From positions 1-6,899 of the IMG/VR virus record IMGVR_UViG_2698536369_000004: a stretch of 6,899 nucleotides of DNA; one strand, 5' to 3'. This document shows positions 1-5,697 of the stretch, in pieces. A model generated the notes under the pieces. That model searched no databases, was not told the DNA's origin, and was given only the letters and a program-made list of their open reading frames with translations. Position 1 is the first letter of the stretch, and every line of letters starts with the position of its first letter. A program made the position numbers and the translations under genes. The DNA is from a virus (lineage: Duplodnaviria; Heunggongvirae; Uroviricota; Caudoviricetes).

Positions 1-12
1 GGGATCGTGAGG

Positions 13-39
13 CAAAGAAAACCCGGCGCTGAGGCCGGG
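13..39 (-). terminator. Intrinsic terminator closing the leftward (cI-strand) transcription unit
   Basis: GC stem CCCGGC (22-27) / GCCGGG (34-39) with a 6-nt loop. On the minus strand the stem is followed by TTTTCTTTG (21..13). Lies about 20 nt past the stop of the 42-aa ORF. Confidence 0.6.
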
Positions 40-60
40 TTCTGTCATCTAACTTAAGTA

Positions 61-189
61 TCAAGCCGCTTTTTGTGAATGATTGATGTGAGCTTCAAAG
101 TCGCGGCGTAGATTTTGAACGCGCTCTACACATCCGCGCATTTCAGCCAAAAGCTTACTAACGGCAGTATAGTCAAACGCTTTAGTCAT
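61..189 (-). CDS. Hypothetical small protein (42 aa), second gene of the cassette downstream of cI
   Basis: Not in the ORF track (under 60 aa); found by reading the minus strand. ATG at 189..187, stop TGA at 63..61. Translation: MTKAFDYTAVSKLLAEMRGCVERVQNLRRDFEAHINHSQKAA. Preceded by GAGGGG plus an A-run, 15 nt after the stop of the upstream 120-aa ORF, and followed by the terminator at 13..39. No recognisable motif. Confidence 0.5.
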   Translation of the reverse strand: MTKAFDYTAVSKLLAEMRGCVERVQNLRRDFEAHINHSQKAA

Positions 190-204
190 TTTTTTTCCCC
201 TCGT

Positions 205-567
205 TTAAATGTAAGGCTCAACATCAAGGGCTGCTATTGCTGCGCACAATGCGTCAGGATCGTCAGCATCGATGGCTTGAGCCAGGTCATTAGCCAGTAT
301 AAGTAACTTATCGATGACAGCGATTTCGCTGGTCTTATCTACACGAAAGTATGGGAGCAGAGCATTACATACGTCTCTGAATGTCCGTAATTCTGCGACA
401 ACGTTCGAAAAGGTAGGATCTTTCTTACGAAGATCCACCAATGGCGCTACTTTAGCTGTTTTCAGCATTGCACTAATCTCGCCAATCATTGTTCCATGCA
501 GACGATTAAATTCATCAACAGCTCGGTCATGCAAGCTCTTGTTGATTGGCAATACGTTTTGGGTCAC
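205..567 (-). CDS. Hypothetical protein (120 aa), first gene of the cassette in the rexA-equivalent position
   Basis: Six-frame ORF with GTG start at 567..565 (first in-frame ATG is codon 27). Minus-strand AAGGAG sits 8 nt upstream of the GTG. Same strand as cI and immediately downstream of it. No similarity to RexA/RexB that I can recognise; no Walker or TM features seen. Confidence 0.7.
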   Translation of the reverse strand: MTQNVLPINKSLHDRAVDEFNRLHGTMIGEISAMLKTAKVAPLVDLRKKDPTFSNVVAELRTFRDVCNALLPYFRVDKTSEIAVIDKLLILANDLAQAIDADDPDALCAAIAALDVEPYI

Positions 568-784
568 TAACTATACTCCTTATATAGGTGTTCGCCAACA
601 GATTTTCAATATGACTTGGGCGATTTCTGAACAATAAGCACGATTTAGCAATGATTAATTGATGTTAAGCACAAATATCTCTACATCGTGCATTTTTAAC
701 TATTTATACACATAAAATCTAATAAATGGATATAAACCTTATGATGATTTTTCTCAATCGAATTGAATAATGATCTCTATCACA

Positions 785-1501
<717 letters not shown>

Positions 1502-1844: not shown

Positions 1845-1917
1845 TTAAACCACACCTATGGTGTATGCATTTATTTGCATACATTCAATCAATTGTTATC
1901 TAAGGAAATACTTACAT
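1845..1917 (+). terminator. tR1-equivalent rho-dependent terminator region (by position and lambda-like sequence)
   Basis: The segment between nutR and the cII start matches the lambda nutR-tR1-cII leader as recalled (CACACCTATGGTGTATGCATTTATTTGCATACATTCAATCAATTG...). Rho-dependent sites have no clear hairpin, so this is called by homology only. Confidence 0.5.
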
Positions 1918-2196
1918 ATGCAACTTACAAGTACTCGCAAGAAAGCGAATGCAATTACAAGCAACATCCTGAATCGAATTGCTGTACGTGGTCAGCGAAA
2001 GGTTGCCGACGCGTTAGGGGTTAATGAATCGCAAATTTCGCGATGGAAAGACAGCTTCATCCCCAAAATGGGAATGCTTCTGGCTGTTCTTGAATGGGGT
2101 GTTGAAGACGAGGAGTTGGCGGAACTGGCTAAGCAAGTAGCCAGAATGCTGACAAAAGAAAAAGCCCCGAAGAACGGCGAATTCTTCGAGGCCTAA
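1918..2196 (+). CDS. cII: CII-like transcriptional activator (92 aa), diverged from lambda CII
   Basis: ATG at 1918 is preceded by the lambda cII initiation region (TAAGGAAATACTTACAT-ATG). The protein (MQLTSTRKKANAITSNILNRIAVRGQRKVADALGVNESQISRWKDSFIPKMGMLLAVLEWGVEDEELAELAKQ...) aligns with lambda CII around the HTH (QISRWK) and LLAVLEWGV, but differs at many positions. Confidence 0.85.
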   Translation: MQLTSTRKKANAITSNILNRIAVRGQRKVADALGVNESQISRWKDSFIPKMGMLLAVLEWGVEDEELAELAKQVARMLTKEKAPKNGEFFEA

Positions 2197-4630: not shown

Positions 4631-4659
4631 GGGGGAGAGGGAATTGGAGGCTTTAAGAA

Positions 4660-4875
4660 ATGAGTACGATAGCTGAGCTTGTCAGGGCTAATTTTCGTGA
4701 AGAGTTGGTGCGTTGGTATCGGTATCGTTCATCGTCCAGTTTGCCGATTGATGAGTTGTATGAGCATTCACCTGCTGCACGACGCTATCCGCGTGACCGT
4801 GTTCTTCGACGGTTGTTCAAACTCAACAATGAGTTTCAGCGCAACAGAATAATCCGGAGTCTGGATTTAAAGTGA
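4660..4875 (+). CDS. Hypothetical basic protein (71 aa)
   Basis: ATG at 4660 with GGAGG 9 nt upstream. Arg-rich (MSTIAELVRANFREELVRWYRYRSSSSLPIDELYEHSPAARRYPRDRVLRRLFKLNNEFQRNRIIRSLDLK). First ORF after the terminator; no family recognised. Confidence 0.6.
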   Translation: MSTIAELVRANFREELVRWYRYRSSSSLPIDELYEHSPAARRYPRDRVLRRLFKLNNEFQRNRIIRSLDLK

Positions 4876-4885
4876 AGGAGTGAGC

Positions 4886-5071
4886 ATGAGTCGACGAAGT
4901 AGCTTTTTGGGGTTTGTAATATTCCTATTCTGCACTGGTTACATCGTAATCTGGTCAATTTCGAACATTGAACGTGGCGGGGAATATCTCATTGTAATGT
5001 TCTTTCCTTTGTTTCTTGGGTGGTACGCCGCAAGGTTGCTGGAAGAATGGGGTTACAGGCATAAAAAATAA
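4886..5071 (+). CDS. Hypothetical small membrane protein (61 aa, two predicted TM helices)
   Basis: The ORF-track start at 4880 is GTG; the ATG at 4886 has AAGGAG (4875-4880) 5 nt upstream. Hydrophobic segments FLGFVIFLFCTGYIVIWSI and YLIVMFFPLFLGWYAA; basic C-terminus (YRHKK). Confidence 0.6.
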   Translation: MSRRSSFLGFVIFLFCTGYIVIWSISNIERGGEYLIVMFFPLFLGWYAARLLEEWGYRHKK

Positions 5072-5130
5072 AGGAGTGTTCAGTGAAGCAAACCCTTTTT
5101 TATTGGATTAAGAGCGAGGGGTAAGTACCG

Positions 5131-5313
5131 ATGGTAAATGCATTTATTTGTAGTTTATTTCTTGTCGCGATTTTTCATGGATTCCTTCTGATGATGAGTT
5201 TTGTTCTCTGGAATAATGAATATCGCATATTGGGAGTAGGTTTTGTTTTACGGTTTTCAGTTGTCTGCGCGTTGCTACCGATAATTATGGCGACTATCAA
5301 ATATTATTGGTAA
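5131..5313 (+). CDS. Hypothetical small membrane protein (60 aa, two predicted TM helices)
   Basis: ATG at 5131 with GAGGGG about 10 nt upstream. Hydrophobic segments AFICSLFLVAIFHGFLLMMSFVLW and ILGVGFVLRFSVVCALLPIIMATI. AT-rich codon usage. Confidence 0.55.
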   Translation: MVNAFICSLFLVAIFHGFLLMMSFVLWNNEYRILGVGFVLRFSVVCALLPIIMATIKYYW

Positions 5314-5328
5314 CCCAAAAAATCATCG

Positions 5329-5697
5329 ATGGAGAGTGATATGGACGAATCAAGAAAGCAGTTTGAGGAATACGTTGCCAAAAAATTGAGATTACCATTC
5401 GAGATGATAACCGAGGCAAGAAATGGTGATAGGTACTTCGCATTTTCAAGCATGGATATTCGTCACTCCTTAAATGAGTGGTGGACTTTATGGCAGGCAT
5501 CGCGAGCAGCTATTGAACTGGATATCGACTGGCCAGAATCGAATGACGACTTTTGGAGAGATGGTGAAGAAGGTGCTTATGCGATGGGTTATGAGAATGG
5601 GCGTGACAAAACGGTAATTGCAGTAATGAAAGCTATCAGAGCCGCTGGAATTAAAGAGAAGAATTTCGATGAAGCAAACAATCTTCCTCCGAAGTAA
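5329..5697 (+). CDS. Hypothetical acidic protein (122 aa; alternative start at 5341 gives 118 aa)
   Basis: Long ORF. The ATG at 5341 has GGAGAG (5331-5336) upstream, whereas the ATG at 5329 has no SD. Acidic and Trp-rich (NEWWTLWQASRAAIELDIDWPESNDDFWRDGEEGAY). 3' end overlaps the ninB start by 29 nt. No family recognised. Confidence 0.62.
   Translation: MESDMDESRKQFEEYVAKKLRLPFEMITEARNGDRYFAFSSMDIRHSLNEWWTLWQASRAAIELDIDWPESNDDFWRDGEEGAYAMGYENGRDKTVIAVMKAIRAAGIKEKNFDEANNLPPK

What the first reader, a model, noticed from the sequence alone, without database searches (positions are those of the whole stretch)
13..567. Unrecognised two-gene cassette in the rexAB slot directly downstream of cI: candidate lysogen-expressed exclusion/defence module
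In lambda, cI is followed on the same strand by rexA (279 aa) and rexB (144 aa), co-transcribed from PRM/PRE in the lysogen. Here a near-lambda cI is followed on the same strand by a 217-bp AT-rich spacer, a 120-aa ORF (GTG start, AAGGAG SD), a closely coupled 42-aa ORF (own GAGGGG SD, 15-nt gap) and a hairpin plus T-run terminator. I see no terminator between cI and the cassette, so PRM read-through should express it in the lysogen. Neither protein resembles RexA/RexB or carries a motif I recognise. The repressor-adjacent position is an established hotspot for prophage-encoded anti-phage systems (RexAB in lambda; BstA next to the repressor in BTP1-type prophages). A long protein plus a tiny partner is also the layout of many toxin-antitoxin and abortive-infection pairs.
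Basis: partly seen in the sequence, partly recalled or inferred. Interest (0 to 1): 0.82.

Follow-up and report, generated by a model that had tools for sequence, protein, structure and literature searches.

The report
Uncharacterised two-gene prophage cassette beside cI
Where phage lambda carries its rexAB exclusion genes, this prophage carries a conserved but uncharacterised gene pair: an acidic helical protein of about 120 residues and a 42-residue partner whose tail looks like a protease tag, which makes it a credible but untested candidate for a new lysogen-expressed, toxin-antitoxin-like phage-defence module.

Summary
On the minus strand, lambda-type cI (785-1498) is followed by a 217-bp AT-rich spacer, gene A (205-567, GTG start, AAGGAG SD), gene B (61-189, 15-nt gap) and the lambda tIMM-type terminator (about 9-44). 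Both genes are real: the pair is conserved across Enterobacterales, Gilliamella and Vibrio and is under purifying selection. In 37 of 41 informative loci it lies directly downstream of a CI/S24 repressor, next to at least 12 repressor types. It also occurs at other prophage positions, so it is a mobile moron, not a repressor accessory.

New findings:
- The family is hypervariable, with at least three A/B allele types. A 28-nt island over the RBS and start codon (561-588) stays invariant where synonymous sites are saturated.
- All 23 distinct B proteins end in AA or VA, usually KKAA, which resembles ClpX C-terminal degrons.
- The island holds a positionally conserved sigma-70-like promoter.

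Neither protein matches Pfam, NCBIfam, PADLOC or PDB sequences. PHROGs lists both as unknown function, and fold matches are generic helical bundles. The function is therefore inferred. The best guess (about 0.35) is a cytosolic TA-like/abortive-infection module with a ClpXP-labile partner. This is a new variant of a known kind, of moderate to high interest.

The parts
785..1498 (-). Lambda-type cI repressor (237 aa). This is context: the upstream gene of the transcription unit, with lambda OR/PRM and cro immediately to its right.
   Evidence: ORF list. PHROG phrog_4, transcriptional repressor, E = 2.8e-61. The sequence is lambda CI with a few substitutions (own knowledge).
589..784 (-). AT-rich upstream region that travels with the cassette. 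It is conserved in blocks and contains the inverted repeat 633-648/681-696. It probably holds regulatory or promoter sites.
   Evidence: GC 27-37%. The same blocks lie upstream of gene A next to different repressors and in a Pantoea prophage with no repressor upstream. Inverted repeat. No conserved RNA structure was found.
561..588 (-). Invariant 28-nt island CCTATATAAGGAGTATAGTTAGTGACCC. It holds the SD (576-581), the start codon (565-567) and the first 4 nt after it. It overlaps two sigma-70-like arrangements: TTGAAA (604-609)-17-TATATA (581-586), and TTGGCG (593-598)-17-TATAGT (570-575). A palindrome CTATA-N7-TATAG brackets the SD.
   Evidence: The island is identical in cassettes whose A proteins are 42-49% identical or not alignable, while dS is saturated. 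The start codon varies GTG/ATG/TTG. Promoter-like hexamers are positionally conserved in 13 of 14 lineages. In the L006-L008 lineage the element becomes TTGATT-16-TATAAT, loses the SD and is displaced 57 nt from A's ATG.
205..567 (-). Gene A: 120 aa, acidic (pI 4.9), soluble, all-helical protein of unknown function (PHROG 13858). Family motifs are GEISxMLxxAKLxP, NP(S/T)F and a C-terminal AAIAALDxxPYI.
190..204 (-). The 15-nt A-B intergenic gap, with B's own SD GAGGGG (197-202).
   Evidence: Every B allele has its own SD 5-10 nt before its ATG.
61..189 (-). Gene B: 42 aa, basic amphipathic-helix peptide (PHROG 12503) with no transmembrane segment. It has a Cys20 that is invariant among the ten Enterobacterales window-type (B1) alleles aligned, and a family-wide C-terminal ...KAA tail (candidate ClpX degron).
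   Evidence: Among 23 distinct B proteins, 21 end in AA and 2 in VA, and 19 have K at position -3. The GCN codons of the tail vary at synonymous sites.
9..44 (-). Rho-independent terminator of lambda tIMM type: hairpin at 18-43 plus a U-tract. It forms the downstream boundary of the cassette slot.
   Evidence: Fold. Window 1-41 is 100% identical to the annotated terminator of the HK542/HK244 immunity regions and matches about 100 lambdoid phage records. The same ACCCGGCC...GCCGGGTTTTTT stem follows nearly all cassette alleles.

Best explanation
The cassette is a self-contained prophage accessory operon (a moron) sitting in the cI-tIMM slot of a lambda-immunity lambdoid prophage. In the lysogen it is transcribed leftward by read-through from PRM/PRE. 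It is probably also transcribed from its own sigma-70-type promoter, which is embedded in the invariant island at the start of gene A.

A is a soluble, acidic helical-bundle protein with no catalytic signature, so it most likely acts by binding another protein. B is a cognate, co-evolving 40-residue amphipathic helix with a C-terminal (K)KAA/KKVA tail. That tail would mark it for rapid degradation by ClpXP or a related AAA+ protease.

The most likely working model is a toxin-first, TA-like abortive-infection module. B continuously neutralises A. When a superinfecting phage shuts off host or prophage gene expression, B decays and freed A blocks the infection or the cell. The promoter inside the island would start transcripts just downstream of A's start codon. 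Such transcripts could express B without full-length A, much as PLIT does for rexB in lambda.

**Shown:** gene reality, pairing, prophage and repressor association, hypervariability, the invariant island, the conserved B tail.
**Inferred:** the A-B complex, B's instability, lysogen expression, toxicity and an anti-phage role.
For: - **Pair conservation.** A and B are adjacent in every locus examined, across three orders of Gammaproteobacteria.
- **Co-variation.** A and B allele types co-vary strictly. Pairwise identities correlate at r = 0.77.
- **Selection.** Both genes are under purifying selection.
- **Position.** The pair is always prophage-borne, and in 37 of 41 informative loci it is directly downstream of a CI/S24 repressor, next to at least 12 repressor types. 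The cI-N interval is a recognised hotspot that holds RexAB and BstA, and cI is among the most transcribed prophage genes in lysogens (PMC8585504).
- **Independent assortment.** The same cassette occurs with different repressors, and the same repressor with different cassette types.
- **Extreme allelic divergence at a fixed locus**, as expected for genes in an arms race.
- **B tail.** It is invariant at the protein level while codons vary. It resembles ClpX C-motif 1 (ssrA ...LAA) and C-motif 2 (MuA ...RRKKAI) (PMC12723719).
- **Transcription signals.** There is no terminator between cI and A, a tIMM terminator follows B, and promoter-like hexamers are positionally conserved. Their retention and improvement in the L006-L008 lineage supports promoter function.
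- **Precedent (own knowledge).** E. coli RnlA-RnlB and LsoA-LsoB are toxin-first TA pairs that abort T4 infection. Their small antitoxin is degraded by ClpXP/Lon.
Against: - There is no homology to any toxin, antitoxin or defence protein: Pfam, NCBIfam and PADLOC give zero hits, and PHROGs says 'unknown'.
- A has no conserved catalytic-type residues.
- Its predicted fold matches only generic or designed helical bundles.
- B has no DNA-binding domain, unlike classical type II antitoxins.
- No toxicity, instability, transcription or plating data exist, and no paper mentions the family.
- The degron assignment rests on a 2-4 residue resemblance.
- Linked genes co-vary whether or not they interact.
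Confidence: 0.35

Rival explanations
1. Modulator of host proteolysis or of the lysis-lysogeny switch. B would be a decoy substrate or competitive inhibitor of ClpXP/FtsH, as lambda CIII is for FtsH. Alternatively, A would be an adaptor or anti-adaptor. Either way the pair would tune the stability of phage or host regulators (O, CII, RpoS, LexA-regulon proteins) and so affect prophage maintenance or induction.
For: - B is a short amphipathic helix with a protease-tag-like tail.
- The pair sits in the immunity operon next to cI.
- A is a small acidic helical protein with no enzymatic motifs, like known anti-adaptors (own knowledge).
- RexA/RexB themselves influence the switch (own knowledge).
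Against: - The cassette assorts independently of repressor type.
- It also occurs far from any repressor.
- Hypervariability is unexpected for proteins that target conserved host machinery.
Confidence: 0.2
2. Prophage-addiction (post-segregational killing) TA pair. It would stabilise the prophage or its immunity region against loss and have no role against other phages.
For: - The evidence is the same as for the TA-like features: a tight cognate pair and a degron-like tail on the small partner.
- The pair is always on prophages, including degraded ones such as RM8385.
Against: - There is no recognisable toxin.
- The family is rare: 98 of 5,426 E. coli genomes and 2 of 100,044 species representatives.
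- It is hypervariable, which fits diversifying selection better than simple addiction.
Confidence: 0.12
3. Lysogenic-conversion factor acting on host physiology or virulence, for example a regulator-binding protein in STEC, and unrelated to phage-phage conflict.
For: - The window allele is concentrated in O26/O103/O111-type STEC and related strains.
- It has moron architecture with its own regulatory region.
- One conserved block includes a palindrome that I read as Fur-box-like, TGATGAAAATCATCA, in some lineages. This is a weak resemblance judged by eye.
Against: - The family spans very different hosts and lifestyles: Proteus, Pantoea, Hafnia, Klebsiella, Gilliamella, Vibrio.
- Its alleles are too divergent for a single conserved host target.
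Confidence: 0.12
4. Counter-defence (anti-defence) pair that protects the prophage or its progeny from host immune systems.
For: - A is small, acidic, helical and hypervariable, which is typical of many anti-defence proteins (own knowledge).
Against: - The pair lies in the immunity operon, outside the pL and pR early operons (context), so it should be expressed in the lysogen rather than early in infection.
- A dedicated labile partner is unusual for anti-defence proteins.
Confidence: 0.08

Closest known systems
Lambda RexA-RexB (immunity-operon abortive-infection pair)
   Same: - Exactly the same slot, between cI and the tIMM terminator, on the same strand. It is therefore the same expected PRM/PRE transcription unit.
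- Two genes.
- A possible internal promoter that would favour the distal gene, like PLIT for rexB (inference; PLIT is own knowledge; the RexB-excess effect is cited in PMC8585504).
   Different: - No sequence similarity: no Pfam or PADLOC hit.
- The sizes are 120 + 42 aa, against 279 + 144 aa for RexA and RexB.
- Both proteins are soluble, whereas RexB is a polytopic membrane protein.
BstA-aba of BTP1-type prophages
   Same: - Encoded directly downstream of the prophage repressor in many unrelated prophages.
- A functional nucleic-acid element spans the 5' end of the gene: aba is 29 bp upstream plus 34 bp of bstA (PMC8585504). Here the counterpart is the 28-nt island spanning -21 to +7.
   Different: - BstA is a single large protein with its own terminator. 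There is no homology.
- aba is cognate-specific and varies with BstA, whereas this island is invariant while the proteins vary.
Toxin-first type II TA abortive-infection pairs RnlA-RnlB / LsoA-LsoB
   Same: - Same gene order: larger effector first, small neutraliser second.
- The small partner is expected to be rapidly degraded by ClpXP/Lon, so host shut-off would release the effector (own knowledge of RnlAB; the B tail evidence is).
   Different: - A is 120 aa and has no RNase or other toxin domain.
- Toxicity and instability have not been shown.
Lambda CIII (small amphipathic-helix inhibitor and substrate of FtsH)
   Same: - B is a phage-encoded peptide of about 40 aa and a single amphipathic helix. 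It is apparently built to engage an AAA+ protease.
   Different: - No sequence similarity.
- CIII acts alone and is expressed from pL, whereas B always comes with a cognate A and sits in the immunity operon.
Morons as defined for HK97/HK022-type phages
   Same: - An autonomous unit flanked by a promoter-like region and a terminator.
- Variably present at a fixed junction between conserved phage genes.
   Different: 'Moron' is an architectural class, not a function. Here the coding part is hypervariable while the 5' island is invariant, which is unusual.

Membership tests
RexAB | Homology to RexA and RexB | tested here: not met
   Neither protein hits any Pfam, NCBIfam or PADLOC family.
RexAB | The second protein is a multi-pass membrane protein | tested here: not met
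   B is 42 aa with GRAVY -0.50 and no hydrophobic segment. A is soluble and acidic.
RexAB | Located between cI and tIMM on the cI strand | tested here: met
BstA | BstA protein homology (large single protein) | tested here: not met
   There is no family hit, and the proteins are only 120 and 42 aa.
BstA | Encoded downstream of the prophage repressor | tested here: met
   37 of 41 informative loci.
Type II toxin-antitoxin | Two small adjacent co-directional genes inherited as a cognate pair | tested here: met
Type II toxin-antitoxin | A recognisable toxin domain or fold | tested here: not met
Type II toxin-antitoxin | Antitoxin with a DNA-binding domain that autoregulates the operon | tested here: not met
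   B is a single helix of about 40 aa with no domain hit.
Type II toxin-antitoxin | A proteolytically labile antitoxin | not testable with these tools
   The only evidence is a conserved (K)KAA/KKVA tail that resembles ClpX C-motifs.
Type II toxin-antitoxin | Toxicity of one partner, neutralised by the other | not testable with these tools
   This needs an expression experiment.
Known anti-phage defence systems (PADLOC-DB 2.0) | A match to a defence-system protein model | tested here: not met
   One search covers the window proteins. One search covers the Vibrio homologues and their neighbours.
Tai (tail-assembly inhibition) and HepS (HEPN Abi) prophage defences | Sequence or fold similarity; the Rx4-6H motif for HEPN | tested here: not met
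   tblastn of A against 50,697 phage records finds only Proteus phage Pm34, so no similar sequence was found in any other record of that collection. No PDB sequence or fold hit to HepS was found. No conserved Rx4-6H motif is present.
Moron | Own promoter and terminator, variably present between conserved phage genes | tested here: inconclusive
   The terminator and variable presence are shown. The promoter is supported only by a consensus match and by comparative conservation.

The most novel reading that the evidence does not exclude
A/B could be a 'trans-degron' immunity module. The hypervariable helical protein A would recognise a specific protein of an invading phage. Its obligate partner B would supply a ClpX degron in trans, so the captured target is fed to the host ClpXP protease. 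That would be a natural PROTAC-like anti-phage mechanism. Its expression would be governed by a previously undescribed invariant 28-nt element that is at once promoter, RBS and start codon.
Probability: 0.06. Interest if true: 0.9.

Novelty: new variant of a known kind. Interest (0 to 1): 0.6.

Why it matters
The cI-N interval of lambdoid prophages is the historical home of RexAB and of BstA, yet most of what occupies it in wild prophages is unannotated.

This work defines a compact, experimentally tractable family of about 160 codons in total. The family is confined to prophages and swaps freely between immunity types. It shows the evolutionary signature of conflict genes: highly divergent alleles at a fixed locus.

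It also has two concrete handles for experiments, a protease-tag-like tail on the small partner and an invariant 28-nt control element.

If the pair is a defence system, it adds a new, very small TA-like or Abi module. Alleles of the family occur in about 2% of complete E. coli genomes, many of them O26/O103/O111 STEC. If it is not, it still exposes an unexplained regulatory element and a probable ClpXP-linked phage function.

Tried and rejected
- **Homology searches.** Pfam, NCBIfam and PADLOC on A and B returned nothing, as did Pfam on eight other alleles and on all 32 members of the deep A alignment. PHROGs returned only 'unknown function' families.
- **PDB sequence and profile searches** hit only de novo designed helical bundles, a compositional effect.
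- **H-NS N-terminal similarity of B** (a weak Pfam hit, E = 0.0045) was rejected by profile comparison (probability 0.5%).
- **Homology of the A2 allele type to A1** could not be demonstrated (hhalign E = 0.017, probability 2.7%).
- **Rfam** found nothing in the window.
- **A conserved leader RNA structure** was rejected. RNAalifold finds only the invariant SD hairpin, with no covariation, and different folds in different subgroups.
- **Ideas for the island that remain untested.** I considered a CsrA-type GGA-in-loop site, a leaderless-mRNA promoter, an overlapping small ORF and an antisense CTATACT promoter. None could be tested. The leaderless and small-ORF readings are unlikely from spacing and from nucleotide-level rather than codon-level conservation.
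- **Tai, HepS and BstA** were considered and rejected as relatives.
- **Literature searches** by accession, PHROG id and topic found no description of the family. Degnan et al. 2007 is not held.
Full report
**1. What is in the window.** The window is the immunity and early-right region of a lambdoid prophage with lambda immunity.
- cI (785-1498, minus strand) is lambda CI with a few substitutions.
- The lambda OR/PRM region and lambda Cro (1599-1799) follow.
- After them come a non-lambda CII-like activator, an O-like initiator, a DnaB-like helicase and nin-region genes.

- a 217-bp spacer (568-784) that drops to 27-32% GC;
- a 120-codon ORF (A, 205-567) with a GTG start 8 nt after AAGGAG;
- a 15-nt gap containing GAGGGG;
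- a 42-codon ORF (B, 61-189);
- a 10-bp GC hairpin with a U-tract (about 9-44).

Window 1-41 is identical to the terminator annotated in the HK542/HK244 immunity regions and recurs in about 100 lambdoid phage records. It is therefore the lambda tIMM-type terminator. No terminator is predicted between cI and A, and the spacer RNA is not unusually structured.

**2. The ORFs are real genes and an obligate pair.**
- PHROGs contains both proteins (phrog_13858 and phrog_12503, 'unknown function'). Pfam, NCBIfam and PADLOC contain neither.
- The exact 800-bp cassette is present in 89 of 5,426 complete E. coli genomes, mostly O26/O103/O111-type STEC, where both genes are annotated 'hypothetical protein'.
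- A profile search of 1.84 billion representative proteins finds only 36 relatives, all about 105-180 aa. Named sources are Citrobacter, Pantoea, Hafnia, Escherichia, Gilliamella and Vibrio, always 'hypothetical'.
- Two isolated phages carry the pair: Proteus phage Pm34 (gp26/gp27) and Klebsiella phage RAH1 (ORF9/ORF8).
- In every locus examined a 38-49-codon ORF with its own SD follows A within 10-50 nt. This includes A relatives at 25-30% identity in Gilliamella, Vibrio and unassigned metagenomic contigs.
- Where synonymous divergence is measurable, dN/dS is 0.06-0.34 for A and mostly 0.07-0.57 for B.

**3. Where the pair sits.** In 37 of 41 informative loci the gene immediately upstream on the same strand is a CI/LexA-type (HTH + S24) repressor. 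These repressors fall into at least 12 clusters at 60% identity.
- The identical cassette occurs next to different repressors. In E. coli RM8385, homology to the window ends at position 812, leaving 28 nt of a lambda-cI 3' end next to a different repressor.
- One repressor type occurs with different cassette types (L020/L022 versus L100). The cassette therefore assorts independently of immunity specificity.
- There are exceptions to repressor adjacency. The pair lies at the edge of a prophage with Mu/P2-type baseplate genes in Pantoea, next to host ccm/focA genes. It lies at the edge of a P2-like prophage, convergent with its repressor. In Vibrio parahaemolyticus it lies between collagen-repeat, tail-fibre-like genes. 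In Gilliamella it lies between CI-like genes and an integrase.

It is thus a prophage-restricted mobile unit with a strong preference for the rex slot.

**4. A hypervariable cassette with invariant ends.** I searched IMG/VR for the 20 nt around A's start (TATAAGGAGTATAGTTARTG). This returned 55 contigs. The same island is in 98 of 5,426 E. coli genomes but in only 2 of 100,044 species-representative genomes.
- Behind this one sequence lie at least three very different A types.
  - A1 is the window type.
  - A3 is related to A1 (PHROG E = 7.5e-9; tblastn to Pm34 E = 6e-8).
  - A2 is not demonstrably homologous to A1 (hhalign probability 2.7%).
- Each A type comes with its own B type.
- Synonymous sites between types are saturated (dS above 1-3 or not computable). 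Even so, the 28 nt CCTATATAAGGAGTATAGTTAGTGACCC (window 588-561) are identical in lineages found by protein similarity alone (7 of 10 distinct cassettes).
- The conservation extends into codons 2-3 at the nucleotide level (nCC Cnn) while the amino acids vary.
- Only the start codon changes (GTG, ATG or TTG), which confirms it as the start.
- Downstream, the K-A-A-stop codons vary at synonymous positions, and the tIMM-type stem ACCCGGCC...GCCGGGTTTTTT is shared by nearly all alleles.
- The roughly 200 bp upstream are conserved in blocks and travel with the cassette even where no repressor is upstream.
- Non-Enterobacteriaceae relatives lack the island.

**5. What the island might be.** It combines several features:
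- a 7-nt SD, UAAGGAG;
- an 8-nt spacer and the start codon;
- the palindrome CTATA-N7-TATAG, which as RNA forms a weak hairpin presenting AAGGA in its loop;
- two positionally conserved sigma-70-like arrangements, TTG(A/T/C)AA-17-TATATA and TTGATC/TTGGCG-16/17-TATAGT.

A natural experiment favours promoter function for the second arrangement. In the L006-L008 lineage the SD is degraded (AAAGAG), the start codon opens only an 11-codon uORF, and A's real ATG lies 57 nt further on. Yet the hexamers are retained and are closer to consensus (TTGATT-16-TATAAT). In L030 the -10-like hexamer changes from TATAGT to TATGAT, which is equally good.

In the window, a start about 7 nt after TATAGT would fall just inside A (near 563-561). 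Such transcripts could express B, which has its own SD, but not full-length A. Full-length A would need transcripts from upstream, such as PRM/PRE read-through or a spacer promoter. This is inference. It resembles the PRM/PRE/PLIT control of lambda rexA-rexB (own knowledge; the RexB-excess effect is cited in PMC8585504).

No conserved leader RNA structure or Rfam family was found. Why all 28 positions are invariant remains unexplained.

**6. The proteins.**
- A is acidic in all allele types (pI 4.6-5.1) and soluble.
- A is predicted with pLDDT 81.8 to be a helical bundle: a long helix over residues 5-40, a short one at 43-47, and three more at 53-73, 79-101 and 104-115.
- Conserved positions in A are structural or motif-like: F20, L35, A38-K39, P42, L46, P51, L60, A96-A98-I99 and the C-terminal LDxxPYI. 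No catalytic-type constellation is present.
- B is a single amphipathic helix, mostly basic, with no hydrophobic segment.
- Across 23 distinct B proteins, only the initiator Met and the C-terminus are invariant. Twenty-one end in AA and two in VA. Nineteen have Lys at position -3, and the typical tail is KKAA.
- The two C-terminal degron classes of ClpX are exemplified by ssrA (...YALAA) and MuA (...RRKKAI) (PMC12723719; Flynn et al. 2003, cited there). B's tail resembles both.
- I therefore infer that B is built to be a substrate of ClpXP or a related AAA+ protease. This is an inference from a short motif, not a result.

**7. Most likely mechanism and rivals.**
- **Favoured model (0.35).** The pair is a cognate, co-evolving set made of a stable binder and a labile small partner. 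It is prophage-restricted, sits in the operon most highly expressed in lysogens, and diverges fast at a fixed locus. That fits a toxin-first, TA-like abortive-infection or exclusion module best, with RnlAB/LsoAB as the functional analogy.
- **Against it.** There is no toxin domain, no DNA-binding antitoxin, no PADLOC match and no data.
- **Rivals.**
  - A modulator of host proteolysis or of the lysis-lysogeny switch, CIII-like or anti-adaptor-like (0.2).
  - A pure addiction module (0.12).
  - A host-directed conversion factor (0.12).
  - An anti-defence pair (0.08).
  - Spurious ORFs are excluded.
- **Contrast with Rex.** Both proteins are cytosolic, so any mechanism differs from the membrane-depolarisation model proposed for Rex.

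**8. Comparison with known systems and novelty.**
- The cassette shares position and transcription-unit logic with RexAB and BstA, but it fails their membership tests.
- It meets the layout criteria of type II TA systems. It does not meet the criteria for a toxin domain or a DNA-binding antitoxin, and the functional criteria could not be tested.
- It fits the architectural definition of a moron.
- I found no paper or database entry that names it.
- I rate it a new variant of a known kind: a prophage immunity-operon accessory and candidate defence cassette.
- Two features seem unusual: the invariant promoter/RBS/start island in front of hypervariable genes, and the universal degron-like tail.
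- Interest is moderate to high (0.6). The family is small, tractable and sits in a classic locus, but its function is wholly inferred.

Noticed in passing
window 561-588 (minus strand): A 28-nt island spanning SD, start codon and +7 of gene A is nucleotide-invariant across cassette alleles whose coding sequences are saturated at synonymous sites. It overlaps promoter-like hexamers on both strands (antisense CTATACT at about 571-577) and a CTATA-N7-TATAG palindrome. No explanation accounts for all 28 positions.
   Followed up: partly
window 785-812; L001 12785-12812: Homology between the window and the E. coli RM8385 prophage ends at window 812. RM8385 thus keeps the last 28 nt of a lambda-type cI as non-coding DNA beside a different repressor. 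This is a mosaic junction, and it suggests the cassette was once linked to lambda-type cI.
   Followed up: partly
L009/L010/L011/L012 5548-5772, L006 5568-5771 (outside the window, just beyond its left end): A conserved ORF of 67-74 aa lies on the opposite strand between the cassette terminator and the N gene region in many related prophages (MGLGMDMGWDELLEDRAAFIAGEIGG...). It is convergent with A-B and shares the terminator. It is absent from RM8385 and is not annotated there.
   Followed up: partly
window 4880-5071 and 5131-5313 (plus strand): Two adjacent small hydrophobic ORFs (63 and 60 aa, each with predicted membrane helices) sit in the nin region. Neither has a PHROG match. Window 4640-5340, which contains them, has no counterpart in the RM8385 prophage region compared.
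   Followed up: no
window 633-648 / 681-696: A 16-nt inverted repeat (core GCACGAT / ATCGTGC, 32 nt apart) lies in the spacer. In a related lineage one arm reads GCGCGAT, which is still pair-compatible as RNA through a G-U pair. AAATCG-like motifs recur about every 21-23 nt between it and gene A.
   Followed up: partly
L042 2813-3014 (the same contig as L084): A natural deletion variant fuses A codons 1-36 to B codons 11-42, removing most of A together with the start of B.
   Followed up: no
L006-L008 about 4935-5000: In the P0020 lineage the ancestral start of A (now TTG) opens only an 11-codon uORF. A restarts 57 nt downstream with a new ATG and again begins 'MT', which suggests an insertion or duplication at the 5' end.
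   Followed up: partly
window 1858-2196: The mechanically listed CII-like ORF (112 aa) matches CII profiles only from residue 21. The real start is therefore probably the internal ATG at about 1918.
   Followed up: no
L107/L108 2369-10315: In Vibrio parahaemolyticus the A-B pair is embedded among four large genes (663-826 aa). They have no Pfam or PADLOC match except collagen repeats in one of them. The block is inserted at different chromosomal sites in different strains.
   Followed up: partly
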